Source: Shigella phage vB_Shi_2KOFFS. From it: 53,672 nucleotides of DNA. The stretch lies in the sequence record PV615261; one strand, 5' to 3'. Positions 3,316 to 53,672 of this stretch are shown here, piece after piece; position 1 is the stretch's first letter, and the number at the start of each line of letters is the position of its first letter. A program made the translations under genes and the position numbers. A model generated the notes under the pieces. It was not told the origin of the DNA. It ran no database searches and worked only from the letters and a program-made list of their open reading frames with translations.

Positions 3316-5082
3316 ATGATGAACGTTAAGCAATGTGTGGCTAAGATTAAGCACGATGTACCAGACTGTAAATCCACATCTGGCAAGTCTTTACAGGTTT
3401 GGTTGAATGTCGATGAAGCTGGTAATAAGAATTTTTCTGGTTACTGTTTTGCATGTGGCGTTCTAGTACCAAATCCTTACGGAAATAATCCGGAGAACAT
3501 TCCAGAGATTAAAGTCAAAACTCCAGAAGAAATTCAGGAAGAAGTTGATGAAATCACTGCTTGTCCTCCGTTTGATTTAACCCATCGCAGCATTGAGCCA
3601 GAATTTTGGAAAGCTGCTGGTGTTCGACTTCTATATTCAGAGTATGATGGAAAGACTCCAAATGCTCTGGCACATGGCTACACCAAAAATGGTAAACTTG
3701 TTCGTTGGAAGATTAAACTTCTGAACAAGAAAGTTATGTGGTCAGTTGGCGACACTCAGGGTAACGACCCTTACAACTGGATGGCTGCAAAAGCAATTGG
3801 CGGTAAGACACTGTTCATCACAGAAGGTGAAGAAGACTGTATCGCATTGCGTCAAATCCTCAAAACTATGAACCGTGGTGGTGCATATGAAGATTTGGAT
3901 TTTGCTGTAATTAGTTTGAGCGACGGAAGTGATTCCGTACACAAATGTTTGTCACCAGTTGCAGAAGAAATTAAGCAACGTTGGGAGCAGGTTGTTATCG
4001 TATTTGATGATGACGAACCTGGACGTAAAGCTGCAAAAGAAGCGTGCCGATTGTTGCCTGGTGCAATGATTGCAACACTTCCAGCTAACGATGCCAACGA
4101 TTGTTTGAAGCGTGGCTTGCTCAAAGCTACTCAATCTGCTGTTGTGTTCCGTGCTGCTCGTCCTCTGCCTACAGCACTTGTCAACAAAGAACTTCTTATG
4201 GAAGAGCTTGATGACGAGGTTGAACAGGGTGTGGATTATCCTTGGCCCAAATTAACCGACTTAATGTTTGGTCAACGTCGAGCCGAAGTTATTACAATCG
4301 GTGGTGCAGAAGGTGGTGGTAAAACTACACTGTCCCGTCAGATTGTGCATCACAACATTACCAAGCACGATTGGGGAGTGTTTACTGCATACATGGAGGA
4401 AACTCCTACAGAAACACTGCGCCGTATGGCTGGCCTTAATGACAACTTGCCATATTGGGAACCCGCGTTCACTCGTGAAGACCCTCGATATGATGAAGCT
4501 AAGTTCCGTCAAACTGCTGCGAAGATGCTTCGTAACATGGAGATTTGGGACCGCAAGCAAGCTGGAGAAGACCCTTATGAAACCTGGGATGGGTTAAAGA
4601 CGATTCTTCGTCAGATTGGACCAGACATTGATATGTTTGTCCTTGATAACTTAACCTACTTATCGGAAGGGATTTCTGCCTCAGAGAAGAACGACTTCTT
4701 AGGTAAGCTGTATGCAGATATTACTAAGCTGGCAGACCAATATCAGTTCCATGTAAATATCTTGTCGCACCTTAACCCTGTGGCAAAAGGTCAACGACCT
4801 CATGAGGATGGTGGACGTATCAAGAAGTCAGACTTTACTGGCTCACGTGCTGCTGCTAAATATTCTCATGGTATGTTTGGCTTTGAGCGTAATAGCCAGG
4901 CAGTTGACCCAAACTGTTCTATCATTCGTTCCATTAAGGCTCGTAAGAGTGGTAAAACAGAAGGCTTCAAGACGTACTATGACACCGAATCCGGTCGAAT
5001 CATTCAACGTTCTTGGGATGACTCGCTGTTCGAAACCAAAGAGATTGTTCAACTCACTAAGAAGAACGGTCCACACCAATAA
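3316..5082 (+). CDS. bifunctional DNA primase-helicase (TOPRIM plus RecA/DnaB-like ATPase)
   Basis: N-terminal Cys cluster; TOPRIM motifs FITEGEEDCIAL and VVIVFDDDEPGRKAA; Walker A ITIGGAEGGGKTT; 588 aa. Confidence 0.85.
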   Translation: MMNVKQCVAKIKHDVPDCKSTSGKSLQVWLNVDEAGNKNFSGYCFACGVLVPNPYGNNPENIPEIKVKTPEEIQEEVDEITACPPFDLTHRSIEPEFWKAAGVRLLYSEYDGKTPNALAHGYTKNGKLVRWKIKLLNKKVMWSVGDTQGNDPYNWMAAKAIGGKTLFITEGEEDCIALRQILKTMNRGGAYEDLDFAVISLSDGSDSVHKCLSPVAEEIKQRWEQVVIVFDDDEPGRKAAKEACRLLPGAMIATLPANDANDCLKRGLLKATQSAVVFRAARPLPTALVNKELLMEELDDEVEQGVDYPWPKLTDLMFGQRRAEVITIGGAEGGGKTTLSRQIVHHNITKHDWGVFTAYMEETPTETLRRMAGLNDNLPYWEPAFTREDPRYDEAKFRQTAAKMLRNMEIWDRKQAGEDPYETWDGLKTILRQIGPDIDMFVLDNLTYLSEGISASEKNDFLGKLYADITKLADQYQFHVNILSHLNPVAKGQRPHEDGGRIKKSDFTGSRAAAKYSHGMFGFERNSQAVDPNCSIIRSIKARKSGKTEGFKTYYDTESGRIIQRSWDDSLFETKEIVQLTKKNGPHQ

Positions 5083-5540: not shown

Positions 5541-7466
5541 ATGTTGTATCCTTACTCCAATATGTATGCTATGGATATTGAAACCACTGGCTTACTGGAC
5601 CAAATGAAGAAGCAAGAAGCACCGCGCTTGCACAACATGGGAATCATTGATGTTGTTTCTCGTGAAGAGAAGTGGACCGACAGAAAGTCTATCCAGGCAT
5701 TTCTGGATACAGGCCCAACATTAATCATGCACAACGGCGCAACCTTTGACTTTGAAGCACTGAGGTTCCTTGGCTACGACGTTTCAAAATGTACCTTAAT
5801 TGATACTTTGTTTATCAGTTGGTATCTGCAACCTCGTCGTGTTAAGCACGGCTTAGAAGGTTACGGCGAAGAGTTTGGTGTGCCAAAACCAGTCATTGAT
5901 GATTGGGAAAATCAAACTCAAGAAGAATACAACCATCGTGTGATGGAAGACTGCAAGATTCAGTTGAAGCTGTGGGAACAGCAATACATTCAACTCTTGA
6001 AGATTTATAAATCTCCTAGCGAAGTTAAGCGCTTCATTGAATACCTGATGACAAAAGCTCGTCAACAGGTTATTCAACAACGTACTCGCTGGAAGCTGAA
6101 CATTGAGAAGGCATTGGCATTTAAGGCCAAGCTGGAGCCAATGATTAAAGAGAAGACGGACGCATTGGAAGCATCAATGCCACGTATTCCAGAATATGTT
6201 ATCAAAACCCGTCCAGCTAAATGCCACAAGTTGAACGGACAATTATCTTCCGCTGGCATCAAGTGGAAAGCTATTTGTGATGCAAACGGTTTGGACTGGA
6301 AAGACCCAGACCTGGCTATCAAGGTTCTTAAAGGTTATAAGAATCCTAACGCTGGTTCTCATGTGCAAATTAAAGACTGGTTGTTCAGCTTAGGTTGGGA
6401 ACCGGAAACCTTTAAGTTTGACCGTAACAAGGAAACAGGTGAAACTCGCCAGATTCCACAAATCACTGTGAAGGATGAAGATGGCAATCCTGAAATATGT
6501 CCGAGCTTGCATAAGCTGGCGGAAAGAAACCCCGACTCTGGTATTCAACATCTTATTGGGATGGGCGTGTATAAACACCGTCTGTCTGTTGTTAATGGCT
6601 TCCTTCGCGACGTCGATGAAGATGGGTTCCTTACTGCACGATGCGGTGGCCTTACCAATACTTTACGCCTTAAACATCGCGAACTTGTTAACCTCCCTTC
6701 TATTCGTGTATTTGGCGGTGAAGAACTGCGTTCAATGTTGGAAGCGTGGCGCGAAGACTACGAACAGCTAGGCTCTGACTTGTGTTCTCTGGAAGACCGT
6801 TGTAAACACCACTTCCAGTGGATGTATGACCCTGAATACGTTAAGAAGCAGTTGGCACCAGACTATGATGCTCACCTTGCAATCGGCGTAATTGGTGGAT
6901 TTATTACTGAACAAGAGTCTCAGGACCACAAGGACGGAATTAAGAAGTGTAAACAACGTCCAATGTTTAAGACTACAAACTATGCTTGTCAGTATGGTGC
7001 TGGTGTGCCGACTGTAGCTCGTTCTGCTGGCTGTGACCAGACTACTGCTGCACGACTGCATAAAGCATATTGGGACTTGAACTGGTCTATTAAAGAGATT
7101 GCTGCAAACACCAAAGTTATCACAGTCGACGGTCAGATGTGGCAACAGAATCCAGTAAACAAATTCTGGTATTCATTGCGTACAGAGAAAGACCGCTTCT
7201 CCACATTGTGTCAGGGTACTGGTGCATATGTGTTTGATGTTTGGTGTAACAACATCATTGCAATTTGTAATGAACGTTGGGGCTGTGACCCACTTCTGTC
7301 CGGGCAATTCCACGATGAATTGATTCTCCAAGTTAAGAAAGGTTTCCGCGATTTGTGGACGGACTTGCTTAATGAGGCAATGGACCGAACCAACAAAGAA
7401 CTTAAACTTAACCGCGATTGTGCATGTGATGTACAGTTCGGTGATAACTACGCGGAGATTCACTAA
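5541..7466 (+). CDS. family A DNA polymerase with 3'-5' exonuclease domain
   Basis: Exo motifs MDIETTGL and HNGATFDFEAL; pol motif B KQRPMFKTTNYACQYGAG; motif C QFHDELIL; ATG 5541 after GGAG. Confidence 0.85.
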   Translation: MLYPYSNMYAMDIETTGLLDQMKKQEAPRLHNMGIIDVVSREEKWTDRKSIQAFLDTGPTLIMHNGATFDFEALRFLGYDVSKCTLIDTLFISWYLQPRRVKHGLEGYGEEFGVPKPVIDDWENQTQEEYNHRVMEDCKIQLKLWEQQYIQLLKIYKSPSEVKRFIEYLMTKARQQVIQQRTRWKLNIEKALAFKAKLEPMIKEKTDALEASMPRIPEYVIKTRPAKCHKLNGQLSSAGIKWKAICDANGLDWKDPDLAIKVLKGYKNPNAGSHVQIKDWLFSLGWEPETFKFDRNKETGETRQIPQITVKDEDGNPEICPSLHKLAERNPDSGIQHLIGMGVYKHRLSVVNGFLRDVDEDGFLTARCGGLTNTLRLKHRELVNLPSIRVFGGEELRSMLEAWREDYEQLGSDLCSLEDRCKHHFQWMYDPEYVKKQLAPDYDAHLAIGVIGGFITEQESQDHKDGIKKCKQRPMFKTTNYACQYGAGVPTVARSAGCDQTTAARLHKAYWDLNWSIKEIAANTKVITVDGQMWQQNPVNKFWYSLRTEKDRFSTLCQGTGAYVFDVWCNNIIAICNERWGCDPLLSGQFHDELILQVKKGFRDLWTDLLNEAMDRTNKELKLNRDCACDVQFGDNYAEIH

Positions 7467-7722: not shown

Positions 7723-8586
7723 ATGGCATTTGCTGCTCCTACCCTGGCCTCGAACAAGACTCCTTCTGCTGCACCATTACTGGAAGCGGGTGGTTATCCT
7801 GCTCGTGTTTGCCGTATTATCGACCTGGGCTTACAGCCTGGTTCTGCTAAATATCCTACTCCGTCTCTGAAACTTCTGGTTACTTTCGAACTGCTCGATG
7901 AGTACATGAAAGAAGTTGACAGTGAAGGTAAAATGGTCATGGTTCAAGACCCAGACGAAGATGACGGCATCATGATGGCGAAGAATCTTGAAGACAAGCC
8001 ACGTTGGTTTGACTTTGAGTTTACCTATAATGCTGACGGCTTCATGGGTGAGAACTCCCACATCTACAAATTCGCTAAGGCGATTGATGCACTGGAAGTT
8101 AAACCTAATCTGGAACAAGGCATTCAGGGCCATCCTGCCAAGAACCTGCCAGACTGGTTGGGCGAACCTCTGATTGTTGGCATTGTTCAATATACCAAGC
8201 AGTCAGGCAAGAATGCTGGCCAGGTTGCGAACAAAGTTGCTACCTTCTCCCCGATGAAGTCTAAGGAGAAGAAAGAGGCTAAAGCTCTGGTTAACCCGAC
8301 TGTCTTCTTCGACATGTCTGAGCCGGACCTGGAAGTATTCAACAAACTGCCAGGTGGCGAATCCCCGTATGCAATCAAGAACCGTATCACTTCTGGTGTT
8401 GATTTCTACAAGACTAAGCTGTCTGCACTGTTAGGCGGTAAACCTGCTGATGAAGGTACTGTACCTAATCAGGCTTCTGATGAAGAAGTTGATGCAGCCA
8501 TGAAAGCTGAACTGGAAGCACAGGCTGCTGCAAAAGCACAGCGTGAAGCCGAAGGTGGTGCAAGCACGTCTGCTATGCCGTTCTAA
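7723..8586 (+). CDS. hypothetical protein, possible ssDNA-binding or annealing protein
   Basis: Optimised codon usage; sits between polymerase and 5'-3' exonuclease; Ala/Glu-rich C-terminus ending MPF; function is inference. Confidence 0.55.
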   Translation: MAFAAPTLASNKTPSAAPLLEAGGYPARVCRIIDLGLQPGSAKYPTPSLKLLVTFELLDEYMKEVDSEGKMVMVQDPDEDDGIMMAKNLEDKPRWFDFEFTYNADGFMGENSHIYKFAKAIDALEVKPNLEQGIQGHPAKNLPDWLGEPLIVGIVQYTKQSGKNAGQVANKVATFSPMKSKEKKEAKALVNPTVFFDMSEPDLEVFNKLPGGESPYAIKNRITSGVDFYKTKLSALLGGKPADEGTVPNQASDEEVDAAMKAELEAQAAAKAQREAEGGASTSAMPF

Positions 8587-17709: not shown

Positions 17710-18002
17710 CGCCACCCCCAGCCCCTACAGTATCTGCTGTAGCTGGAGTTGTAACGGTTGATGCGTCTTCTACTGATGCCACTGTAACTGTAGACAAGCT
17801 GTTCAAGTTTGAGAACTCTACAGCAACAGATTATAACTTCGCTGTTACACCTCCTGTGACTGGTGTTTCTGTGGCGGCAAACGGCACTGTGACTGTCTTG
17901 AATGAGACGACCACAGAGACTTCTGCTACAATTAAGGCAACAAACAAAACAACCTCTAGCGTAACTGCGACCAAAGAAATTACCATTACGCCGAAGGCTT
18001 AA
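17236..18002 (+). CDS. -1 frameshift fusion product: decoration-like protein plus C-terminal Ig-like domain
   Basis: After slipping at 17697-17703 the -1 frame reads AVTPPPAPTVSAVAGVVTVDASSTDATVTVDKLFKFENSTATDYNFAVTPPVTGVSVAANGTVTVLNETTTETSATIKATNKTTSSVTATKEITITPKA, ending TAA 18000-18002. Confidence 0.55.
17697..17703 (+). promoter_or_regulatory. -1 programmed ribosomal frameshift slippery heptamer C CCA AAG
   Basis: X XXY YYZ heptamer in the 0 frame, 3 nt before the TAA stop of 17236..17709; the -1 frame is open for 99 codons downstream. Confidence 0.6.
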
Positions 18003-18024: not shown

Positions 18025-19064
18025 TTGCGCCTCATCAAACAAAACGGATTAATTTACATGCCTAAGATGATTAAACTGGCGGACGGTTCTGAATTTGAAC
18101 TGAACGACGCTATCACCCGTATTCAGGATTCTGGCACTGTTGTCCTGAATGACGACGATGCAGTATTCTTTCAACGCCAGCTTGAGTTCATTGAAGCTCA
18201 AACTTATGACACCCTGTATCCAGAACTGGAAGCGCGTGCTGCTTTCGGTGTGGACACCACTGGTGGCGCTGGCGTAAACACTCTGACCTACCGTTCCTAC
18301 AACCATGTAGGTAAAGCTCAGGTAATTAACGCCCGTGCAACCGACCTGCCGAAGTCCAGCATTTCTGGTAAAGAATACAGCATCCCTGTTAAATCAGTTG
18401 GTACTGCATTCGACTACGATATTGACGAAGTAGCGTCTGCTGCTGTTACTGGCCTCCCGCTGGAAACTCGTAAAGCGAATGCTGCTATTCGTGGTTACGA
18501 GCAGTATGTTAACTCTGCTGCATGGTACGGCGATAAAGCTAACGGCTTTGTTGGCTTCTTCGAAAACCCAGACATTACCAAAGCAACTGTTGCTCAGGGT
18601 GCTGGTGGTTCTACCAAGTGGGCCGAGAAGACCCGACCGAAGTTATTGCCGACCTGACTGCTGCTGTGTCTGCAATGTATGCTTCTACTCTGAAAATTAT
18701 GCGCCCAGATGAAATCTGGATGCCTGTTGAGCATGAGCAGTACATCTTCAACACTGCACGTTCTGAACAGTCTGATAAGACGATTGGTCAGTTCTTCATT
18801 GACAACAACCAGTTCATCAACTCCCGCGATAAAATCAAGGGTCTGAACGCAATCAAAGGTCACGGCGATTCTGGCTCCGATTGCTTCGTTGTTGTTTGCC
18901 GCAATGCAATGGGCAACCGTACTTTCCGTCTGCGTGAGCCTCTGCCACTGACCTGGCAACCGGTACAGCTTCATGGTCTGGTTTATGAAGTTCCTGGCCG
19001 TGGTCGTTTCGCTGGCTTCCAAGCGATGTATCCGGCAGCAATCTCCATCAACTCCGGCATCTGA
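18025..19064 (+). CDS. major capsid protein; reading frame changes (-1) near 18628-18640 in this sequence
   Basis: Strongly optimised codons; frame 1 (18025..18657) and frame 3 (18618..19064) are each protein-like and together about 350 aa; no slippery heptamer at the junction. Confidence 0.65.
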
Positions 19065-39419: not shown

Positions 39420-39436
39420 CCATTAGTTGGTTGTGA
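39420..39436 (+). promoter_or_regulatory. conserved promoter-like motif (CATTAGTTGG family), upstream of RNA polymerase gene
   Basis: cCATTAGTTGGtTGTGA; one of at least 9 copies of consensus ACATTAGTTGGATGTGAA. Confidence 0.45.
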
Positions 39437-39498
39437 TTATGAATAGGCTACGCAAGTCTAATCCGTTTCAGTTAAATCATAATCAATTGGAGACTATC

Positions 39499-41613
39499 AT
39501 GACTAACGAAGAATACCGTGCACTGGCTGCTGATGGCGCTCGCTTGAAAGAAGAAGGCCAAGGTTGGAAAGACGTGCTCGATACGATGGACCGTTGCAAT
39601 CAGATGGTAGATGAAATCACCTCCGCTACACAATCCGAAACTAAAACCGAAACTAAATTGGAGACTCGCAAAATGACAACTATCTCAACTCAAACTATCA
39701 AATCCGTTGTCCCTGCTATCACTGCTCTGGTATATCGTGCCAAAGAGAAACAGAACTACATGCAACCTCAGACCTGTGCTATTGCTGCTCTTGCAATCTT
39801 TAAGATGATGACCTCATTCACTCGTGATGATGTTGTTCCTGCAATTGCAATGGTTGAGCTGGCTTCTGCTTCAATTGCTGATGCCAACCGCTACAACAAC
39901 GATTTGAAAGCAATGCACTATGTTGACCCAGCTATCAACCTCATTGGTCTGGCTAAACACTTTGGCTTCATCACCATGAACGAAGATAAGTCATTCCAAC
40001 AAACTGACACATGGGTTGAACTGGTTACAACCAAAGACACAGCAGTGCCATTCACTGAGCGTGTTACATCTGAATCTCGTCGCAAGCCTTTCGTTAAAGG
40101 TGGCAAAGTTAAGCCATCCAAGACTCTGAAAGCTGCAATCGAATTCCTGCAAGATACTGAGTACCATGTGGAGACTGAGATGGTTCGCATCATTCAGTCC
40201 ATGCTTGAGCAACGTACTTATGGTGGCTTGCAGATGCCAGAAGCAATCCAGACTGAACTCCATGTTTGGAACAATGCTGTAGCAATGATGAATCAGGACA
40301 CACTGTATTCTGACTACTTTGCTGATAACCGTGGCCGTCTGTATCATGTAGCATGTGCTGGCCCTAACCCACAATCCTCTGACTTTGCTCGTTGCTTGTA
40401 TTCTCACAATGTTGAGAACATCGTTAAGAAGTTTAACGAAGATGGTTCTACTACCATTGCATACAACATGTTCATGGCAGAGCTGGAAGATATTTCTGGT
40501 GGTGAATGGTGCAGTGCTAAACGTTTAACTTATGTTGCTCAGAATCCGGCTGGTTCACTTGCTCGCATGATGAACATGCCTAAAGCTGAACGTCCTTCCA
40601 AGCCATTCACTTATGTTCGTCTGGCTCTGGATTGGTTCAAGTTTGAGACTATAGGTGAATGCGATTCTCGTGTAGGCTTTGGCTTAGATGCTAAATGTTC
40701 TGGTACTCAATATCTGGCATTCATTGCTGGTAACATGGAAATGGCTCGTGCTACAGGTCTGGTTGATTCTGAGACTAAAGCATCTGACCCATACCAGTTG
40801 AGTCTCCGTGAACTGTTGAAGTTACTCGACCGCTCTTCAATGAAGCCATCTCCTGAAATCATGGACGAATTCTTGAATCCGAAATCTGGTCGTAAGTTTA
40901 TCAAAACTCCGTACATGGCTATCCAATATGGTGGTGGTAAAGCTGCATTAACTGGTTCTTCTGACTTTATCTCCTACATGACAGAAGCGCTCCAGATTCC
41001 TATGGAGAAAGCTGAGGCATTTGCTGAACTGTGTGTAGAAGCAATCCATAACGCATTGGGTGCTAAGATTAACATGTTCATTGAGAAAGCTGCTGATGCT
41101 GCATACAACCGTTGTGTTGAACTTGGTAAAGAGTACATCACATACCGTCACACAGACGGTCAGGTTGTAATGAAGCCTTGCTTCCCATCTCGTGAAATCT
41201 GTGAGGCATTCAGCATTCGTGTTGACTCTCAAACTCGTGTCATCTTTGGCCAGATTCAGGAGAATAAGCCTTGGACCATTCGTGAATCCAACCCAACTAA
41301 AGAAGAATTCAAGCGTACTTTCGTTGTTAACTACATTCAAGGTATTGACGCATTGGTTGCTCGTACTGTTGCAGTTAAAGCTAAAGAAGCTGGTCTTCGT
41401 GGTTTTACTTCAATCCATGATTGTTTCCGTTGCTGTCTGGCAGATGCTCCACGTATGATGGAAGTTATTCGTGCAGCATATGTTGAAATCTTCGTAACCA
41501 ACAATCAATTCGAGAATCTGTCTAAGCAACTTGGTGGCATTCAGATGTATCATGAGAACATCGTAACCGAAGAGCTTCTGATGAGCGAACACGCTTACTA
41601 CTTCTGTCAATAA
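39499..41613 (+). CDS. T7-like single-subunit DNA-dependent RNA polymerase
   Basis: Motif A GLDAKCSGTQYLAFIAG (T7 DGSCSGIQH), motif B RKFIKTPYMAIQYGGGK, motif C FTSIHDCFRC (T7 IHDSFGT); ATG 39499 after GGAG; about 704 aa. Confidence 0.8.
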   Translation: MTNEEYRALAADGARLKEEGQGWKDVLDTMDRCNQMVDEITSATQSETKTETKLETRKMTTISTQTIKSVVPAITALVYRAKEKQNYMQPQTCAIAALAIFKMMTSFTRDDVVPAIAMVELASASIADANRYNNDLKAMHYVDPAINLIGLAKHFGFITMNEDKSFQQTDTWVELVTTKDTAVPFTERVTSESRRKPFVKGGKVKPSKTLKAAIEFLQDTEYHVETEMVRIIQSMLEQRTYGGLQMPEAIQTELHVWNNAVAMMNQDTLYSDYFADNRGRLYHVACAGPNPQSSDFARCLYSHNVENIVKKFNEDGSTTIAYNMFMAELEDISGGEWCSAKRLTYVAQNPAGSLARMMNMPKAERPSKPFTYVRLALDWFKFETIGECDSRVGFGLDAKCSGTQYLAFIAGNMEMARATGLVDSETKASDPYQLSLRELLKLLDRSSMKPSPEIMDEFLNPKSGRKFIKTPYMAIQYGGGKAALTGSSDFISYMTEALQIPMEKAEAFAELCVEAIHNALGAKINMFIEKAADAAYNRCVELGKEYITYRHTDGQVVMKPCFPSREICEAFSIRVDSQTRVIFGQIQENKPWTIRESNPTKEEFKRTFVVNYIQGIDALVARTVAVKAKEAGLRGFTSIHDCFRCCLADAPRMMEVIRAAYVEIFVTNNQFENLSKQLGGIQMYHENIVTEELLMSEHAYYFCQ

Positions 41614-41675: not shown

Positions 41676-41843
41676 ATGTTTACAGTGACCCTAGTAACCT
41701 ATTACGGCAAACAAGTTTGTGAGAAGTTTGAGACTTTAGAAGAAGCAAGAGCTTTTGCAGCACTTGAAGAGAACATTTATGTAGAGTGTGAAATCACTGA
41801 TGGTGATAAGCAATACGAAATAGTTAAGCCTACACTCAACTGA
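41676..41843 (+). CDS. hypothetical small protein (55 aa)
   Basis: ATG after GGAGCATATC; downstream of promoter-like motif. Confidence 0.45.
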   Translation: MFTVTLVTYYGKQVCEKFETLEEARAFAALEENIYVECEITDGDKQYEIVKPTLN

Positions 41844-41893
41844 TTCCCAATATTCAGACAATATTGCTGCATGTAATATTGTCTCGATATTCG

Positions 41894-41911
41894 ACATTAG
41901 TTGGATGTGAA
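41894..41911 (+). promoter_or_regulatory. conserved promoter-like motif copy
   Basis: ACATTAGTTGGATGTGAA exact consensus; no ORF follows for about 1.1 kb. Confidence 0.45.
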
Positions 41912-42610
41912 GTAAAAGAATACGGAGAAATATTACTCACGTTGTTCGTGGGTTTCCGCATGTCATGTTGAATCATTCTAGAAACATTCAGCATGTCAGC
42001 TTTGAGTTACAGTGTTGTAATGATGTGGCAATCATTGAACTCCCTAGGTAGGCCACCTACAGTTCCAGCAACCATGACTTAGAGTAGGAATATCTATCCG
42101 AAACTTGTACTTCACCTATAGCATGTTCAATTGCGACAATATTGCTCCATCTCCTATTATAAAGGCCCACCCACAAGCCGGGAGATAACTTTGGTAATAT
42201 TGGAACTTTTGGACATGCTTCTTTCTTTCAATCAGAATTCGAAAGAAGAGAAGAGTCGGAGCAAAGCCTCTCGTTTTCACGCAGAAGCCGCCCCGATTTT
42301 GAGCAACAAATATTGTGACAATTTTGTCGCAGTATGGCATGTAAATATTGCTACAAATTGGCATGTTAGAATGTGGCAGAATTGTTAGAGGACTAATCAC
42401 CTCGAAGATACAATCGTCTACCAATCTGGCATGTTAATTTTGTAACAGTATTTGTGCCAATTTCGCATGTAATAGCTGTATCAGTAATGACCCAATATTC
42501 TTGCAACCCGCATGAATACTGGCTTCCAGCCAAGCGAAGGCTTTATCATCGCATGTAATATTGTGACAATATTGGGATAAAACCCTTTATTTAATTTGTT
42601 TTATTATGCT

Positions 42611-42650
42611 GTACATGGTCGGTTTTCCGTACCTGCTTGCTCCAATCTTA
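42611..42650 (+). repeat. 35-40 nt intergenic repeat element, copy 2
   Basis: GTACATGGTCGGTTTTCCGTACCTGCTTGCTCCAATCTTA; matches 39016-39050. Confidence 0.6.
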
Positions 42651-42765
42651 ATGTGCCAAATACGTTAAGTATGGGAGTAAACCTGTAATTAATGGTGCAT
42701 GTTTAATTGTGACAAAATTCGTCTATTTGGCAGATGAATTAGTTGCAATTAAGCATGTTCATTTA

Positions 42766-42783
42766 TCATTAGTTGCATGTGAA
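42766..42783 (+). promoter_or_regulatory. conserved promoter-like motif copy
   Basis: tCATTAGTTGcATGTGAA. Confidence 0.45.
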
Positions 42784-43076
42784 TAAGACCAAATCTCTGT
42801 AAATTCTGCTGAAATTGTGTGACAGATTTTAGAGAGATTATGTCTCCAAGCTAATCATTGTAGTTTTTAGACACTTTGTGTGTCACATATATAGCCTGTG
42901 AAAAACGTGTGGTTTATTGCCGGATTGCAACGCGCCCACCAGACTAGGAAGTCCCTGATGGCGGCACACACAGGAATACTATATAACTCCCTACAACTTT
43001 AAGGTGGATTGAGGTAAGACAAGACCTCCACAATCGTTCTGTAGGGAGTTCTTTTAACTTAGGAGAATAAGCAGAA

Positions 43077-43307
43077 ATGAATTACGCACTGTATTGCTAT
43101 TTAAACAAACAAGGCTTTGTTAAGCACGCTTTGGTTAACATTAAAACTAAGGAAGTATTGTTGGCCGACCAATCAATTGTTGACTTTAGATTGGTATGGA
43201 AGAAAGCAATGCACCCTGAACATGTTTGGGAAACAATTCAGTTAGATAAGCACCACAAAATTGTGGCAACTGCTACTCGTCCAGACCACATTCTACCAAG
43301 AGGTTAA
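43077..43307 (+). CDS. hypothetical early protein (76 aa)
   Basis: ATG after AGGAG; first ORF after the 1.2 kb non-coding region. Confidence 0.55.
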   Translation: MNYALYCYLNKQGFVKHALVNIKTKEVLLADQSIVDFRLVWKKAMHPEHVWETIQLDKHHKIVATATRPDHILPRG

Positions 43308-46130: not shown

Positions 46131-46148
46131 ACATTAGTTGGATTTGAA
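46131..46148 (+). promoter_or_regulatory. conserved promoter-like motif copy
   Basis: ACATTAGTTGGATtTGAA, 75 nt upstream of 46223. Confidence 0.45.
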
Positions 46149-46222: not shown

Positions 46223-46603
46223 ATGGCACAATATTCAGATGTAAACACTGGCATCATCGGTCCTAACGGCTTCAAGAAAGACCCAAAACATCCTGACATT
46301 CGTGGACGTATTAACGTTGACGGAATCTGGTATTGGGTGTCTGGTTGGAACAAGCAAGCCAATGGTAATGAATTTACCTCACTTGCATTAACCATCATGA
46401 CCCAAGAACAGGTTGATGAAATGATGCGTAAGCGTGAAGAGAAGGCTAAAGCCAAAGCTCAACCTCAAGCTGCCGCTCAACAGCAACAGCAACGCCAGCA
46501 ACCTTCTGCACAACAGCAAGCACCTGCTCAACAGCAAGCTCCGCAGTCATCTGGATACAACCCAAATGAGCCGCAGGACTTTGATAGCGACATACCATTC
46601 TGA
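46223..46603 (+). CDS. small protein with Gln-rich linker and SSB-type acidic C-terminal tail (DFDSDIPF)
   Basis: 126 aa; about 60-aa beta-rich N-terminus, Lys/Ala helix, QQQ-rich linker, terminal PQDFDSDIPF resembling the bacterial SSB C-terminal peptide. Confidence 0.6.
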   Translation: MAQYSDVNTGIIGPNGFKKDPKHPDIRGRINVDGIWYWVSGWNKQANGNEFTSLALTIMTQEQVDEMMRKREEKAKAKAQPQAAAQQQQQRQQPSAQQQAPAQQQAPQSSGYNPNEPQDFDSDIPF

Positions 46604-49137: not shown

Positions 49138-49404
49138 ATGAATTATCAAGACATACCAGCAGAGATTCAGCATCACTATGCCCGTATAGATAAGGCAAAG
49201 AAAGAATTGCATCAAATGTCTGCGCTGAATCTAAGCGATGAAGTTCGATTAAATGCTTATATGGAGGTTGGAGAAACTTCCATGAAAATTAGCTTCAATG
49301 AGAAAGAAGCTATTATGCGGACGCTTATTAAAAATAGCGAGGAAAGATTAGTAAAACTTCGTAAAATACATAGTGCACTAACTGACACAATGGAGAGCAT
49401 ATGA
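49138..49404 (+). CDS. hypothetical protein (88 aa)
   Basis: ATG 49138. Confidence 0.45.
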
Positions 49405-49943
49405 GCACCATTATCCAAGCAATAGAAAATCTTAAGTCCTGGCGTAGAGATGAAACCTTATTGGTTCGTTTCTACACAGGCGAAACTAATTCTGAATTTG
49501 TAGATGCGTGGATTGATGGCCTATCTTGGCGTCATTATGATTTCAACATGCGAGATTATTTGCATGAAGAATACGGCATTGAATATCCAGAAGACGGTAC
49601 ATACGACGTAATTGAATCAAACGAAGAAGATGTTACCGAAGTTTGCTTTGCCAACGGCCTATTCAGCATTCGTAAGTACGATAAGTTCAATGAGCTGCTT
49701 GTTGATACTGATTTGGATGTAATTCTTGCAGCATTCCGCAGTGGTGATATTGATATTTTCACTGTGGATGATTTGAACGATATGTTCATTACACGTTGTG
49801 ACTCAATTACAGAATACTTGAAGCAAAGTGAGTCACTGGATATTCCAGACCGCCTTGCACCATATATTGATTGGGATGCAATCACCAAAGATTATGGAAG
49901 TGACTACATCTTCTCTGAGGGAGTATTGTTCTTAAATGTCTGA
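49401..49943 (+). CDS. hypothetical strongly acidic protein (180 aa)
   Basis: Very high Asp/Glu content throughout. Confidence 0.5.
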
Positions 49944-50172
49944 CTTAAATATCAACTCAATAAAGCCAGAAGATATTCTCTTCCACCAGCCTCGTGGACA
50001 CTACTATCGAATTCTGTTTGCTACAAAAATTAAAACCCACTGCGGCAATTGGGTAGATGGGTTTGCTTACCAGGAAGTTAAGAAGTATGGAAATCATACT
50101 TTCTTGGGAATTAATTCGATAATTTATACAAGACCGAAGGAACTGTTTGATTCAGATTGGAAAGCAGTATAG
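49936..50172 (+). CDS. hypothetical protein (78 aa)
   Basis: ATG overlapping upstream gene end. Confidence 0.45.
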   Translation: MSDLNINSIKPEDILFHQPRGHYYRILFATKIKTHCGNWVDGFAYQEVKKYGNHTFLGINSIIYTRPKELFDSDWKAV

Positions 50173-50240
50173 TTCCAGGCTGTTCCGTCGAAGTGCCAAG
50201 CGGGTTTTGTACTCGCATTGGCCTTCGGCTTAATTCTGGG

Positions 50241-50258
50241 ACATTAGTAGAATTTGAT
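50241..50258 (+). promoter_or_regulatory. conserved promoter-like motif copy (degenerate)
   Basis: ACATTAGTaGaATTTGAt, preceded by TTAATTCTG shared with copy at 50381. Confidence 0.35.
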
Positions 50259-50380
50259 TCTGACCTCTTAGGGAAGAACTGCATTATACATCTATCGCCA
50301 AATGGGTGTCAAGCACTTTCTTAATTTATTTTATTTATTCTTATTATTCGTGCGGTTTGGAATAATGGAATAATTCTGAA

Positions 50381-50398
50381 ACATTAATTGGAATTGAC
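50381..50398 (+). promoter_or_regulatory. conserved promoter-like motif copy
   Basis: ACATTAaTTGGAaTTGAc, preceded by TTCTGAAACATTA as at 52345; 10 nt upstream of the structured element. Confidence 0.4.
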
Positions 50399-50408
50399 AA
50401 CATCAGAT

Positions 50409-50486
50409 AAGAGCTTTGTAACTAGGTAGTCCGTCTGGTACCAAGACGTGTGAGAACGTTCGATTCGTTCTACAAAGCTCTTTTCG
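50409..50486 (+). ncRNA. candidate small structured RNA with tRNA-like T-arm and acceptor-like stem, ending in a U-tract
   Basis: 12-bp closing stem 50409-50420/50471-50482; internal hairpins 50432-50448 (5-bp stem, 7-nt loop) and 50454-50470 GAACG-TTCGATT-CGTTC (canonical T-arm shape); no D-arm; followed by CTTTTC. Confidence 0.35.
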
Positions 50487-51031
50487 ATGGAATGTTTCCA
50501 TCATATACATTTATCTTTTAACATAGGCCAAAAGGCCGGAATACTTATTCGCAGAAAAGCTATTCACTTGTTATAGGCGATGTATTGGGATGAATTGGAA
50601 CTAAATAAGCAAGCTGTTAGGGCTGAATAATTAGAGGGTTATGCCTCATGCTTATGTTAGTCGTTCGAAAATAGGTTTGTGCCACAAGCTGCTGGTGCTC
50701 TGAGGAAGTCGGACAAACAGGGCTTAGAGTGGCATAATCCTCACAAAACCGCGCCACCAGCTATGCCAAAGCAGGTAGGTTGGGTGAATGTATTGGGAAG
50801 GGTTACAAAGCCTCTGTGACCTCCGTAGCTTGCCAGGCTGCGGTGCAGTTATGATACGCAGGTCGCACCCTAACGGGAGTAACCCTTCGCCAATGCAGTC
50901 ATCCAGAATTGACACAAACGGTAGGCAGTGGCCCGATTTTCGGCCTTCCTGCGCTGCCCTGTGGCCTGTTTCATGGGCCAAAAGATGAGAAGAGAAGTCA
51001 CAAACACTGAATCGAAAATTGGAGAGTTCCT

Positions 51032-51352
51032 ATGATTCGCAAGCATTCTGCTAAAGTTTTGACATTAAGAAATGTACTAATGTCTTCGCCAAGTGGGGAA
51101 GAGGAGGAAGAAACAATCCACTTCGTTCTCGTTGGCGGGCGTTGGTATTACAACGGGACCAATAACTTCACCGTAGGAATTTCGGAGAAAGATGGGTTCT
51201 GGAAGCACACTTTCAAAGACATACTCGAATGTAGTGCTAAATACACCCTTGCAGAAGTTAAGAAATATTTCTACTGCGGCCCAAACAAGTCCATGCAAAT
51301 CGCAACTCGCAATTGGACAACAAACCAACCAGTTTACGGAGTTCCATTTTGA
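51032..51352 (+). CDS. hypothetical protein (106 aa)
   Basis: ATG after GGAGAG. Confidence 0.5.
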   Translation: MIRKHSAKVLTLRNVLMSSPSGEEEEETIHFVLVGGRWYYNGTNNFTVGISEKDGFWKHTFKDILECSAKYTLAEVKKYFYCGPNKSMQIATRNWTTNQPVYGVPF

Positions 51353-51640: not shown

Positions 51641-52315
51641 ATGTCTTATCATGATGATGACAAAGAGATTGCACTATCAACGTGTAAGCAATGGCTCAAT
51701 GATAATGATGCCGTCTATCTTGCCAAGGAAGATGTTATCATTATGTGGGTCCATTTTAATCCAGAATCGAAGCGCGGTGAGTGGCAACGCTACAAGATGA
51801 AAGAGGCTTGTCGCATAATTAAAGCCACACGCGCTGGCTTCTCTGCTATGAAATACATCAAGCCAGAGATGCTAATGCTTGCTGCACAAGAAGAAGAACG
51901 TGCATATAAGCAAGCTGTTAAATCTCGTTCAACTGTTCCTCCAGAGTTCTTTAATTTGGAGCGCGCTGGACACTTCAACAATTTAGAAATGTTGACACTG
52001 TGCCTGTTGCAAGAATTAGTTGGAAGAGGACAAAACATTGAAGCTGTTTGTCTTGGAGAACTCATGAAAGAGTTGTTCTCGGCAAAGGGCTTTGCTGTGC
52101 CAAATCGAACTTTACGCTGGAAATTGTTGCGAGCAGTCGCACAAGAAGCTGGTGTAGTTGTTCGTGACAGAACAAACCGACTCACTGTAACTGGAGTTGG
52201 GCGTTTTGTAGCAATCCAGATTGAGGGTTATGACGAATCAATCATCACTGAACTCACTGTCGATGAGACAAAGGATTTAGTAAATAAAACACTAGAACGA
52301 TTCAATAGATATTGA
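51641..52315 (+). CDS. hypothetical protein (224 aa)
   Basis: ATG 51641 immediately after upstream stop. Confidence 0.5.
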   Translation: MSYHDDDKEIALSTCKQWLNDNDAVYLAKEDVIIMWVHFNPESKRGEWQRYKMKEACRIIKATRAGFSAMKYIKPEMLMLAAQEEERAYKQAVKSRSTVPPEFFNLERAGHFNNLEMLTLCLLQELVGRGQNIEAVCLGELMKELFSAKGFAVPNRTLRWKLLRAVAQEAGVVVRDRTNRLTVTGVGRFVAIQIEGYDESIITELTVDETKDLVNKTLERFNRY

Positions 52316-52344
52316 GTCGTTTGACGAATCAGAGCAGTTCTGAA

Positions 52345-52362
52345 ACATTAGTTGGATGTGGA
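52345..52362 (+). promoter_or_regulatory. conserved promoter-like motif copy
   Basis: ACATTAGTTGGATGTGgA, 77 nt upstream of 52439. Confidence 0.45.
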
Positions 52363-52438
52363 AAGAGAAAGGCTCTTTAATTTTATCTAAGTCACGTCAC
52401 CGTGGCGTGCAAAACTATTCAATATAAGGTATATACAA

Positions 52439-52777
52439 ATGGCTAAGATTGTAACCGTAACTCAGTACGAAGCTAACGATGGTTCCCTGTTCCTGACCGA
52501 AGCAGAGTGTAATGCACATGACTTCAAACTGGAAAACGGTGCTAAAATTGAGAAAGCTGCCGAAGCGTACCTGAACACCGTTGGCGCTATCGACCGTTCT
52601 CGCTCCATGCAGAAGAACACCATCGAGCAGTTCCTGGCATTCTACCTGCCGTGGGTTGAAGCTGGTGAGCCGGAAGTTGAGCGTACTAAGTTCGATACTC
52701 CGAAAGAAGCTAAAGTTGCTGATGCAGCTGTTTCCGAAGCTGCCGAAGCTGCTGTTGAAGAAGCTCCGGTATTCTAA
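52439..52777 (+). CDS. small acidic protein with highly optimised codon usage (112 aa)
   Basis: ATG after AAGGT; net charge about -11; codon usage like the capsid genes; flanked by promoter-like motif and downstream hairpin. Confidence 0.6.
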   Translation: MAKIVTVTQYEANDGSLFLTEAECNAHDFKLENGAKIEKAAEAYLNTVGAIDRSRSMQKNTIEQFLAFYLPWVEAGEPEVERTKFDTPKEAKVADAAVSEAAEAAVEEAPVF

Positions 52778-53672
52778 GTTGCCGATGGCAAACTTGAGAG
52801 ACTAGGCTAAATCGATCTGGCGTGCACTGGAAGTTTTCCGGTGCTGCCTTGAACCCATTCCAGAGTGAGTGGGCTTCAATGAGCATTCTTGTGATTAGAG
52901 TTGGGAGGTAGGCCGATGCCCAAGCTCATGGCCCAGACAAGAGTGTTCATTGAAGTAGTTTTCTGAGTCTTACGACGGGCCTAAACTGCCTGGAGTTATT
53001 GCGACTGTTTTATTCATTTAAAATAAATGCAAATGATTCTGAAATGCGAGTTGCGGCTTAATTAAATTTAAGTCCTCTCCGTGGTCTTCCAATCCCACGT
53101 AACCAAATTTGGCGCATTGTGGCTTCGAGATGTGATTAATAAATCGGAGCATTAATTAATTTGTATTCTGCGATGCAAAGCAGGCTTAAGTCCTCCAGTG
53201 CGCGTGGGGATGTGACAGAGTACAAACTTAATTATGCAGTTGGATATTTCTAGAGGACGGACGAGCACACTGGAATGTCTTCAATTGGTTTAGTGTGAGA
53301 AGCTATGCCAATTTGAAACGTAACTCCTTGAGGAAGTGCTCCTCTGGACTTCCCTCCACACAGGAATCTCAAGCCTGTGGCAGCGACTTCGAAGCTGCAC
53401 TGCGTAACCTAATTCACCCTAAAGTGAGTTGCCCTGAGCATGGAAATAAACTGCTCATAACCGATGGTATCTACAAAGGTAGATTAAATCAGGTTGCCTG
53501 TTGGTACTTGGGTTCAACACCTGCTTGCACTCGCAAAGTAGTGCCTCGTACCTGAGATGAAGTGAGTCGGGACCATCAATCCCACGTTATGTCAAAACAC
53601 AGTAGGCGACTCACAGATTCTACAAGCCTCGCAGTTCGGGAAAACCTGCGTTATCAAAACCCCCCCCCCACC

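What the first reader, a model, noticed from the sequence alone, without database searches (positions are those of the whole stretch)
52338..52800. Self-contained promoter / highly codon-optimised acidic 112-aa gene / hairpin unit: candidate abundant host-takeover or DNA-mimic protein
The gene at 52439-52777 uses the same optimal codons as the capsid genes, is net acidic (about -11), and has a conserved promoter-like motif 77 nt upstream and a hairpin right after its stop. Small, abundant, acidic early proteins in T7-like systems include DNA mimics that block restriction enzymes. The 180-aa protein at 49401-49943 is even more acidic and is a second candidate.
Basis: inference. Interest (0 to 1): 0.45.

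Follow-up and report, generated by a model that had tools for sequence, protein, structure and literature searches.

The report
Top-expressed phage protein with SSB-like tail
The 112-residue gene is a real, very highly expressed core gene of the Chaseviridae phages, but it looks like a replication-module adaptor with a floppy acidic tail ending in phenylalanine (as in single-strand-DNA-binding proteins) rather than a DNA mimic that blocks restriction enzymes.

Summary
The window is a Carltongylesvirus (Chaseviridae) genome, about 98.7% identical to phage vB_EcoM_SA91KD.

**Observation: confirmed.**
- ORF 52439-52777 is the phiEcoM-GJ1 gp29 homologue.
- It has the highest codon adaptation of all genes, above the capsid genes, and net charge -10.
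- A phage promoter-like motif sits 76 nt upstream, and hairpins follow the stop codon.
- Its homologue ranks first in codon adaptation in four genera.
- The 4HA13 homologue was detected by mass spectrometry.

**Interpretation: only partly supported.**
- The protein is abundant and acidic, but it does not look like Ocr or ArdA.
- Its charge density is about a third of Ocr's, and half the charge lies in a disordered tail.
- It matches no anti-restriction family.

**What stands out instead.**
- The architecture is a small fold of a beta-hairpin plus a helical hairpin, followed by an Ala/Glu tail.
- The tail ends in a conserved C-terminal Phe: 91 of 127 relatives end exactly in F.
- This is the tail type of bacterial SSB and of T7 gp2.5 and gp4.
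- The gene always follows a winged-helix protein and lies upstream of primase-helicase and DNA polymerase, even in relatives with 26% identity.

**Best guess (0.38):** a stoichiometric replisome adaptor or loader.

**Second candidate:** the 180-aa protein at 49401-49943 is a divergent ArdA-like protein. Related records already annotate it as anti-restriction.

The parts
52343..52362 (+). Phage promoter-like motif AAACATTAGTTGGATGTGGA, probably recognised by the phage single-subunit RNA polymerase.
   Evidence: Three matches with up to 3 mismatches against 0.02 expected. Annotated as a putative phage promoter in GJ1 and SA91KD. Conserved upstream of the homologues in 4HA13, Y2 and Myduc. No transcription start site has been mapped.
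52393..52409 (+). 5'-UTR stem-loop (CACGUCA CCG UGGCGUG).
   Evidence: Predicted in both the MFE and centroid folds. By my own inspection, Y2, 4HA13 and Myduc have non-homologous stem-forming sequences at a similar position. The function (mRNA stability?) is inferred.
52425..52429 (+). Shine-Dalgarno sequence TAAGG within the conserved block AATATAAGGTAT, 9 nt before the ATG.
   Evidence: The block TATATAAGG/AATATAAGG is conserved in five phages of four genera, while the rest of the UTR is not.
52439..52777 (+). 112-aa gene, the phiEcoM-GJ1 gp29 homologue (phrog_17419). Layout: beta-hairpin motif (residues 9-18), helical hairpin (21-48 and 52-74), conserved VERTxFDTPK segment (80-89), Ala/Glu disordered tail (about 90-112), C-terminal P-V-F.
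52776..52796 (+).
   Evidence: Fold. It lies in a 33-nt segment absent from 4HA13 and Y2, so it is lineage-specific.
52809..52820 (+). Conserved box AAATCGATCTGG, which directly follows the stop codon in other genera.
   Evidence: Unique in the window. Conserved in GJ1, 4HA13 and Y2. Function unknown.
52819..52848 (+). GC-rich hairpin (13 pairs), a terminator candidate.
   Evidence: Fold. The position matches the terminator annotated in SA91KD. The sequence is not conserved between genera, but each genus has a hairpin here.
52849..52879 (+). Conserved 12-bp hairpin UUGAACCCAUUC-loop-GAGUGGGcUUCAA.
   Evidence: Fold. Both stem halves are conserved in GJ1, 4HA13 and Y2 despite loops of 6 to about 45 nt.
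51641..52315 (+). 224-aa conserved upstream partner gene (phrog_13087), with a predicted C-terminal winged-helix domain.
3316..5082 (+). T7 gp4-like primase-helicase, the downstream anchor of the conserved module.
5541..7466 (+). Family-A DNA polymerase.
7723..8586 (+). 287-aa protein after the polymerase gene, with a tail ending ...SAMPF. It is the second-best codon-adapted non-structural gene.
   Evidence: Homologues end GQPF, VIPF, DDPFA and PNPFD.
46223..46603 (+). 126-aa SSB with the canonical tip ...DFDSDIPF. Its promoter motif matches exactly and has the same spacing as that of gp29 (motif at 46131, ATG at 46223).
49401..49943 (+). 180-aa divergent ArdA-like anti-restriction candidate, net charge -26.
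   Evidence: Annotated as anti-restriction in relatives.

Best explanation
The gene encodes a very abundant, Chaseviridae-wide core protein that belongs to the DNA-replication module.

Architecture: a small folded N-terminal domain (a beta-hairpin packed on a helical hairpin) carries a roughly 40-residue flexible region. That region contains a conserved VERTxFDTPK segment, then an Ala/Glu acidic tether whose very last residue is a conserved phenylalanine.

I propose it works as a tethered-ligand adaptor. The N-terminal domain anchors it, probably through the neighbouring winged-helix protein p224 or by self-association. The acidic Phe-COOH tip docks into a basic-rimmed hydrophobic pocket of a replisome partner such as the primase-helicase, the DNA polymerase or an SSB cleft. 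Bacterial SSB tips and the T7 gp2.5 and gp4 tails dock in this way. The protein would thereby help load or couple the helicase and polymerase on phage DNA.

Shown: expression signals, abundance proxies, architecture, conservation of the terminal Phe, and synteny.

Inferred: every binding partner and the replication role itself.
For: 1. Synteny is conserved down to 26-35% identity. The order is p224-like gene, gp29-like gene, 0-5 small genes, primase-helicase, PolA, p287-like gene, 5'-3' exonuclease, ligase. This holds in pAh6-C, VPs20 and metagenomic contigs L003, L013, L014 and L015. In L014 and L015 the gp29-like stop codon lies 10 nt before the helicase start.

2. Tail: 91 of 127 family members end exactly in F, and 106 of 127 have F in the last four residues. 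The preceding 30 residues carry -5 to -12 charge. Distant members end EDDLF, EEDMF and even EDSIPF. pLDDT falls to 47-58 over residues 91-112.

3. The same tail type occurs on T7 gp2.5 (...EADEDGDF) and gp4 (...SNDTDF). Those tails bind T7 DNA polymerase (PMC12339929). It also occurs on this phage's own SSB (...DFDSDIPF) and p287 (...AMPF), and is conserved across genera.

4. gp29, p287 and SSB are among the best codon-adapted non-structural genes in several genera: gp29 ranks first in all four genomes tested, p287 ranks 2nd to 5th in all four, and SSB ranks 2nd and 3rd in Y2 and Myduc. gp29 and SSB co-appear in the 4HA13 proteome.

5. gp29 and the SSB gene share the exact promoter core, with the same 92-94 nt spacing to the ATG. 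The motif class is confined to the early/middle region.

6. The partner p224 has a confident winged-helix model whose best structural matches are origin-recognition proteins.

7. The gene order, sizes and bipartite architecture parallel SPP1 G38P (origin binder, 29.9 kDa), G39P (loader, 14.6 kDa) and G40P (helicase) (PMC3561973).
Against: - No homology to any replication protein. hhalign against SPP1 G39P gives probability 0.1%.
- The N-terminal domain is not an OB fold and is net acidic (-5), so DNA binding is unlikely.
- A helicase loader is normally needed in small amounts, whereas this is the most codon-optimised gene in the genome, above the capsid protein.
- T7-type gp4 helicases load without a loader.
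- The front basic patch of T7 DNA polymerase, which binds the acidic tails, is not recognisably conserved in this polymerase.
- The gp29 tip (P-V/L/M-F) differs from the phi-P-F tips of SSB and p287.
- Location inside a replication cluster does not prove a replication role. The abundant T7 H-NS binder gp5.5 also sits between the polymerase and exonuclease genes (annotation).
Confidence: 0.38

Rival explanations
1. Host-takeover decoy. The abundant free 'SSB-like tail' saturates pockets on host proteins that normally bind acidic, aromatic-tipped tails. Candidates are SSB-interactome enzymes such as ExoI, RecQ, RecJ, PriA or Pol III chi, the ssDNA cleft of host SSB, or basic nucleoid proteins such as HU and H-NS. 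This would shut down host replication and repair, or protect phage DNA ends.
For: Very high expression fits a stoichiometric competitor. The acidic tail ends in a conserved terminal Phe, and one relative ends in the true SSB tip EDSIPF. The gene belongs to the early/middle promoter class. The N-terminal domain has no detectable enzymatic or DNA-binding features.
Against: The phage's own SSB keeps a canonical DIPF tip, presumably to use the same host partners, and a decoy would compete with it. The usual gp29 tip (P-phi-F) has proline one position away from its place in the SSB tip. Host SSB partners are low-copy proteins and would not need a protein more codon-optimised than the capsid protein. 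The strict pairing with p224 and the helicase module is not explained.
Confidence: 0.2
2. One reading: an Ocr- or ArdA-like DNA mimic that blocks type I restriction-modification or BREX.
For: The protein is small, acidic (pI 4.49) and abundant, in a phage with a T7-like RNA polymerase. Nothing excludes electrostatic binding of the tail to DNA-binding proteins.
Against: Charge density is about a third of Ocr's, and half the charge lies in a disordered tail. It matches no anti-restriction or defence-related family. It is not among the first genes to enter the cell. The phage already encodes an ArdA-like protein 2.5 kb upstream. Distant relatives carry both genes separately. An invariant terminal Phe is not a feature of known DNA mimics (my own knowledge).
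Confidence: 0.06
3. A virion-associated protein: packaged or ejected, a decoration protein, or a scaffold-like assembly factor.
For: The 4HA13 homologue was found in CsCl-purified particles at 53% coverage. Its codon usage resembles that of capsid genes. It has a helical-hairpin fold and is acidic, like many scaffolding proteins.
Against: The same preparation also contained SSB and other proteins the authors call non-structural, so detection may reflect carry-over of abundant proteins. The gene is far from the morphogenesis module and uses the early/middle promoter motif, which is absent from the structural region. A protease/scaffold-type gene already lies next to the capsid gene.
Confidence: 0.1

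Closest known systems
Acidic C-terminal tails of T7 gp2.5 (SSB) and gp4 (primase-helicase), and the bacterial SSB C-terminal tip (DDDIPF)
   Same: A disordered acidic tail whose last residue is a conserved phenylalanine. The proteins are highly expressed and encoded in a phage with a T7-like primase-helicase, a family-A polymerase and a single-subunit RNA polymerase.
   Different: There is no OB fold or other recognisable DNA-binding domain in front of the tail, and the folded part is net acidic. The tip consensus is P-[VLM]-F or [DE]-[LM]-F rather than I-P-F or D-F. No sequence homology.
SPP1 G39P helicase loader, within the G38P-G39P-G40P operon
   Same: A protein of about 13-15 kDa with a folded N-terminal domain plus a tail predicted here to be unstructured. 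That G39P has the same bipartite build is my own recollection of the literature and was not checked here. The gene lies between a DNA-binding 'organiser' gene of about 25-30 kDa and the replicative helicase gene. This is strictly so in contigs L014 and L015.
   Different: No sequence similarity (hhalign probability 0.1% for gp29 against G39P and 0.09% for p224 against G38P). The helicase is gp4-type, not DnaB-type. G39P has no terminal Phe. The extreme expression level is unexpected for a loader.
T7 Ocr and ArdA DNA mimics
   Same: Small, acidic and abundant. A candidate counter-defence protein in a phage with a T7-like RNA polymerase.
   Different: Much lower charge density, a charge-poor folded domain, no family match, a different genomic position, and a separate ArdA-like gene in the same genome.
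E. coli YebG (SOS-inducible, PF07130) and the repeated 'TSDGKxFxSxxEAxAH' motif of actinobacterial surface proteins
   Same: The N-terminal beta-hairpin/helix motif Y-x-A-x-DG-x-x-F-x-x-x-x-E-A-x-A-H. The library search found repeated stretches matching this part of the gp29 family profile in P0105 and P0109. Pfam's YebG model aligns weakly to the same kind of motif in P0105 and in family member P0114.
   Different: hhalign probability is only 1.6%. This is resemblance at motif level only and tells nothing about function.

Membership tests
Ocr/ArdA-type DNA-mimic anti-restriction proteins (112-aa protein) | Sequence or profile membership in a known anti-restriction family. | tested here: not met
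   No Pfam, NCBIfam or PADLOC hit. The only PHROG hit is phrog_17419, of unknown function.
Ocr/ArdA-type DNA-mimic anti-restriction proteins (112-aa protein) | Very high density of surface carboxylates on a rigid folded body. | tested here: not met
   -8.9 net charge per 100 aa, against -23.9 for Ocr. The folded part (residues 1-78) carries only -5; the rest lies in the low-confidence C-terminal third, where pLDDT averages 63 for residues 81-90 and 47-58 beyond.
Ocr/ArdA-type DNA-mimic anti-restriction proteins (112-aa protein) | Inhibits type I R-M or BREX. | not testable with these tools
   Needs plating and biochemical assays.
SSB / T7 gp2.5-type tail-bearing replisome hub | Intrinsically disordered acidic C-terminal tail. 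| tested here: met
   pLDDT is 47-58 for residues 91-112. The last 30 residues carry -5 to -12 charge across the family.
SSB / T7 gp2.5-type tail-bearing replisome hub | Conserved aromatic residue at the extreme C-terminus. | tested here: met
   F112 is invariant in alignment A1. 91 of 127 relatives end in F. T7 gp2.5 and gp4 end in DF.
SSB / T7 gp2.5-type tail-bearing replisome hub | OB-fold ssDNA-binding core. | tested here: not met
   The AF2 model is a beta-hairpin plus two helices. No SSB family hit.
SSB / T7 gp2.5-type tail-bearing replisome hub | The tail binds the polymerase, helicase or other partners. | not testable with these tools
The T7 polymerase basic patch does not align.
SPP1 G39P-like helicase loader | Gene lies between an origin-binding/organiser gene and the helicase gene. 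| tested here: met
   The order p224-like (winged helix), gp29-like, primase-helicase is contiguous in L014 and L015, with 1-5 genes between in L003, pAh6-C, VPs20 and L013. In this window about 4 kb intervenes.
SPP1 G39P-like helicase loader | Sequence or structural homology to G39P. | tested here: not met
SPP1 G39P-like helicase loader | Delivers the helicase to origin-bound initiator. | not testable with these tools
   Biochemical assay needed.
Beta-clamp-binding motif proteins (QL[SD]LF) | Q at position -4 and a hydrophobic residue at -3, before [SD]-L-F. | tested here: not met
   Position -4 is mostly E, G or A, and position -3 is A, P, D or E. Only positions -1 and 0 (phi-F) fit. The motif consensus is from my own knowledge.
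ArdA family (180-aa protein, 49401-49943) | Match to Pfam PF07275 or annotated anti-restriction families. | tested here: inconclusive
   The window protein scores 16.3 bits (E 0.015), below the gathering score of 27. However, all 11 homologues hit ArdA (best E 1e-6), homologue P0180 carries PF07275, and PHROG 14321 'anti-restriction protein' matches at 5.5e-50. No PDB ArdA hit by profile.
ArdA family (180-aa protein, 49401-49943) | Strongly acidic. | tested here: met
   Net charge -26, pI 4.05.
YebG (PF07130) | Profile-level homology. | tested here: not met
   hhalign probability 1.6%, 31 aligned columns.

The most novel reading that the evidence does not exclude
The family is a new kind of phage protein: an 'SSB tail without an SSB'. 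It would be a massively expressed, non-DNA-binding carrier of an acidic Phe-COOH ligand. Paired with a winged-helix initiator-like protein, it would either organise a T7-like replisome in trans or flood the cell with decoy tails that disable the host's SSB-dependent replication, repair and nuclease network, or defence systems that sense SSB.
Probability: 0.25. Interest if true: 0.7.

Novelty: new variant of a known kind. Interest (0 to 1): 0.45.

Why it matters
Chaseviridae are being developed as biocontrol phages against E. coli, Erwinia, Pectobacterium, Yersinia and Aeromonas. Yet the gene with the strongest codon adaptation in each of the four genomes tested here, which span both subfamilies, is annotated only as 'hypothetical'.

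If the protein is a tail-bearing replisome adaptor or a decoy, it would show that the SSB/gp2.5-type C-terminal ligand can be carried by a separate, non-DNA-binding protein. It would also provide a handle on how these phages, which pair a myovirus virion with a T7-like transcription and replication set, start and organise DNA replication.

The finding also corrects the anti-restriction assignment. The plausible anti-restriction protein of this phage is the ArdA-like 180-aa protein, not this one.

Tried and rejected
Searches with the 112-aa protein that found nothing useful:
- Pfam, NCBIfam and PADLOC: nothing.
- PDB by sequence profile: nothing, best E 1.2.
- Foldseek against BFVD: only uncharacterised family members.
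- The afdb50 library was not available.

Comparisons with known proteins:
- YebG: the motif aligns but the probability is 1.6%. Rejected as homology.
- SPP1 G39P and G38P: no similarity.
- T7 gp2.5 against the 287-aa protein: no similarity.
- The T7 polymerase front basic patch is not conserved in the pairwise alignment.
- Beta-clamp motif: does not fit.

Other checks:
- Sigma-70 promoter and intrinsic-terminator scans around the gene: nothing at the relevant sites. The signals are not of the host type.
- Rfam and tRNA scans of the whole window: empty.
- Literature searches for Chaseviridae transcriptomics, Carltongylesvirus, phiEcoM-GJ1 and SSB-tail mimics found no functional study of this protein. 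The phiEcoM-GJ1 and Y2 genome papers are not held.
- I considered that the gene sits next to the physical genome end because the window ends nearby. I rejected this because Myduc and 4HA13 place the terminal repeat at the RNA polymerase gene.
Full report
**Identity of the window.** The region around the finding is 97-98.8% identical to Carltongylesvirus phages (vB_EcoM_SA91KD, PO103-1, ST32, phiEcoM-GJ1) of the family Chaseviridae. All genes lie on the + strand. Chaseviridae are myoviruses with a T7-like single-subunit RNA polymerase, a T7-like primase-helicase and a family-A DNA polymerase. The ICTV profile states that their promoters 'have not yet been identified' (PMC12842549). The window is permuted relative to the physical genome. 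In Myduc and 4HA13 the roughly 3-kb terminal repeat starts at the RNA polymerase gene, which here lies at 39439-41613. The gene of interest therefore sits about 13 kb from the left end, not at an end.

- ORF 52439-52777 encodes 112 aa.
- With Sharp-Li E. coli weights its CAI is 0.737, the highest of 68 genes. The capsid cluster scores 0.55-0.62.
- With weights derived from the phage's own capsid and sheath genes it ranks first of 71, and it has the lowest ENC, 31.2.
- Net charge is -10 and pI is 4.49.
- The motif AAACATTAGTTGGATGTGGA at 52343-52362 ends 76 nt before the ATG. Two close copies lie at 41892 and 46129, so there are 3 matches against 0.02 expected. The core has weaker copies only in the early/middle region.
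- Public records already annotate this site as a putative phage promoter.
- The motif is conserved upstream of the homologues in 4HA13, Y2 and Myduc, although the surrounding sequence has diverged. A conserved ribosome-binding block AATATAAGG follows.
It lies in a 33-nt segment found here only in the two Carltongylesvirus sequences (this window and phiEcoM-GJ1) and absent from 4HA13 and Y2.
- The conserved downstream elements are the box AAATCGATCTGG (52809-52820), a GC-rich hairpin (52819-52848; annotated as a terminator in SA91KD) and a 12-bp hairpin (52849-52879). The stem halves of the last are conserved in GJ1, 4HA13 and Y2 despite very different loops.
- Distant Nefertitivirinae homologues also have a terminator-like hairpin downstream.

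**The protein is real, abundant and a core gene of the family.**
- It belongs to phrog_17419, of unknown function.
- It has 88 close relatives in the 5.8-billion-protein collection (E below 0.001) and 48 representative clusters in the exhaustive HMM search.
- tblastn with a distant member finds it in 107 phage records. All listed ones are Chaseviridae of both subfamilies, with Escherichia, Erwinia, Yersinia, Pectobacterium, Proteus, Aeromonas, Shewanella and Vibrio hosts.
- In Y2, Myduc and VPs20 the homologue again ranks first of 58-68 genes by capsid-referenced codon adaptation.
- The 4HA13 homologue (AC4HA13_0029) was detected by LC-MS/MS in CsCl-purified particles at 53% coverage. The SSB (62% coverage) was detected alongside it, and the authors describe the protein set as including non-structural components (PMC9699118).

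**Architecture.**
- The alignment shows a conserved N-terminal region with a conserved motif, a variable tail and an invariant last residue.
- Invariant residues include Y10, D14-G15-S16, F18, H27, F29, R53-S54-R55 and N60.
- The segment V-E-R-T-x-F-D-T-P-K (residues 80-89) is nearly invariant.
- AlphaFold2 (pLDDT 75.5) gives a short beta-hairpin, two long helices (21-48 and 52-74) and no structure after residue 75. Confidence averages 63 over residues 81-90 and 47-58 over the rest of the tail.
- Of 127 family members, 91 end exactly in F and 106 have F within the last four residues. The consensus is E-[A/P/D/E]-[P/A/E]-[V/L/M]-F-COOH.
- Distant members end in EDDLF, EEDMF, EDELF and DDSLFL, some carry two tandem tips, and one ends in EDSIPF.

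**Why it is not a DNA mimic.**
- Its charge density is -8.9 per 100 aa. T7 Ocr has -23.9 and the phage's own ArdA-like protein has -14.4. The value resembles that of T7 gp2.5, -6.5.
- The folded part carries only -5.
- No anti-restriction or defence-related family matches, and no structural match exists.
- The phage has a separate candidate 2.5 kb upstream. The 180-aa protein matches PHROG 'anti-restriction protein' at 5.5e-50. All 11 of its homologues hit Pfam ArdA (best E 1e-6), and one homologue carries PF07275. It is annotated as such in relatives.
- Distant contigs that carry a gp29-like gene also carry a bona fide ArdA gene elsewhere.

**What points to replication.**
- *Synteny.* In every genome or contig with enough flank, the gene is immediately preceded by a homologue of the 224-aa protein at 51641-52315 (profile E 1e-35 to 3e-23 in distant contigs). 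It is followed, after 0-5 small genes, by the primase-helicase, PolA, a p287-like gene, the 5'-3' exonuclease and the ligase. In L014 and L015, whose protein is 26% identical to the query, its stop codon lies 10 nt before the helicase start.
- *The tail type.* A disordered acidic tail with a terminal Phe is the signature of T7 gp2.5 (...EADEDGDF) and gp4 (...SNDTDF). Those tails contact T7 DNA polymerase (PMC12339929). It is also the signature of bacterial SSB. In this phage the SSB ends ...DFDSDIPF and the 287-aa protein after the polymerase ends ...SAMPF, and both endings are conserved across genera.
- *Expression.* gp29, p287 and SSB are among the best codon-adapted non-structural genes: gp29 is first in all four genomes, p287 is 2nd to 5th in all four, and SSB is 2nd and 3rd in Y2 and Myduc. 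gp29 and the SSB gene share the exact promoter core at the same distance from the ATG.
- *A possible helicase motif.* The helicase itself carries a conserved WDDS[LMQ]FE near its C-terminus, which resembles the tips of distant gp29-like proteins.

**Best explanation and its limits.** I read the protein as a tethered-ligand adaptor of the replication module. Its nearest functional analogy is the SPP1 trio G38P (organiser), G39P (small loader) and G40P (helicase) (PMC3561973); I recall G39P as bipartite, which I did not check here. The tail chemistry matches SSB and gp2.5. This is inference. There is no homology to G39P. The N-terminal domain is not an OB fold and is acidic. A loader should not need to be the most strongly expressed protein of the phage. 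The T7 polymerase docking patch is not recognisably conserved. The abundance fits a stoichiometric role better. That role could be many tails per replisome or per stretch of ssDNA-protein filament, or a decoy against host proteins. I therefore give the replication-adaptor reading 0.38, the host-directed decoy 0.20, a virion-associated role 0.10 and the DNA-mimic anti-restriction reading 0.06. The remainder is unassigned.

**Novelty and verdict.** The transcription unit and the ORF were already annotated, with the gene as a hypothetical protein. As far as the held literature shows, four things are new:
- the recognition that this is the top-ranked gene for codon adaptation in four genera spanning both Chaseviridae subfamilies;
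- the conserved Phe-terminated acidic tail, shared in type with the phage's SSB and p287;
- the deep pairing with a winged-helix protein at the head of the replication module;
- the resulting reassignment away from anti-restriction.

This is a worthwhile, testable lead of moderate interest, not a demonstrated new mechanism.

Noticed in passing
window 18058-19064 (junction about 18633-18657): The major head protein gene is split into two ORFs in different frames (18058-18657 and 18675-19064). tblastn with the Y2 capsid protein switches frame at residue 194. This is a frameshift in an essential gene, most likely a sequencing or assembly indel, though a real or programmed shift is not excluded.
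   Followed up: partly
window 7723-8586, 46223-46603 and 52439-52777: The 287-aa protein, the SSB and gp29 all have flexible tails ending in Phe (AMPF, DIPF, APVF). The endings are conserved across genera. All three are among the best codon-adapted non-structural genes in several genera.
   Followed up: yes
window 3316-5082 (C-terminal region): The primase-helicase carries a conserved W-D-D-S-[L/M/Q]-F-E motif about 20 residues from its C-terminus. It resembles the tips of distant gp29-like proteins (e.g. DDSLFL) and may be the counterpart of the T7 gp4 tail.
   Followed up: no
window 50172-51032; 52880-53672 continuing into 1-590; 1233-2223; 41843-43077: Several stretches of 0.8-1.5 kb contain no convincing ORF, in an otherwise tightly packed genome. 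No Rfam family or tRNA was found, although phiEcoM-GJ1 annotates a 'tRNA-Arg, may contain an intron' in the corresponding region after this gene.
   Followed up: partly
window 17711-18000: An open frame without an ATG start follows the 157-aa head protein gene. It encodes a Thr/Val-rich sequence that looks Ig-like to my eye (...TVTVDKLFKFENSTATDYNFAVTPPVTGVSVAANGTVTVLNETTTE...). It may be a gene with an unusual start codon or a frameshift extension.
   Followed up: no
window 50312-50283 (minus strand): A perfect sigma-70 consensus (TTGACA, 18 nt, TATAAT) lies on the minus strand, in a genome where all genes are on the plus strand.
   Followed up: no
window 53650-53672: The window ends in a C-run (...aaaaccccccccccacc). 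This is not the physical genome end, judging from Myduc and 4HA13.
   Followed up: partly
window 39420-39432: A copy of the promoter-like core (CCATTAGTTGGTT) lies directly in front of the RNA polymerase gene itself (ATG at 39439). This is odd if the motif is read only by the phage polymerase.
   Followed up: no
window 52403-52411 and 52820-52828: The 9-mer TGGCGTGCA occurs both in the 5'-UTR stem-loop and in the first strong 3' hairpin of the gp29 transcript. It may be chance or a shared processing signal.
   Followed up: no
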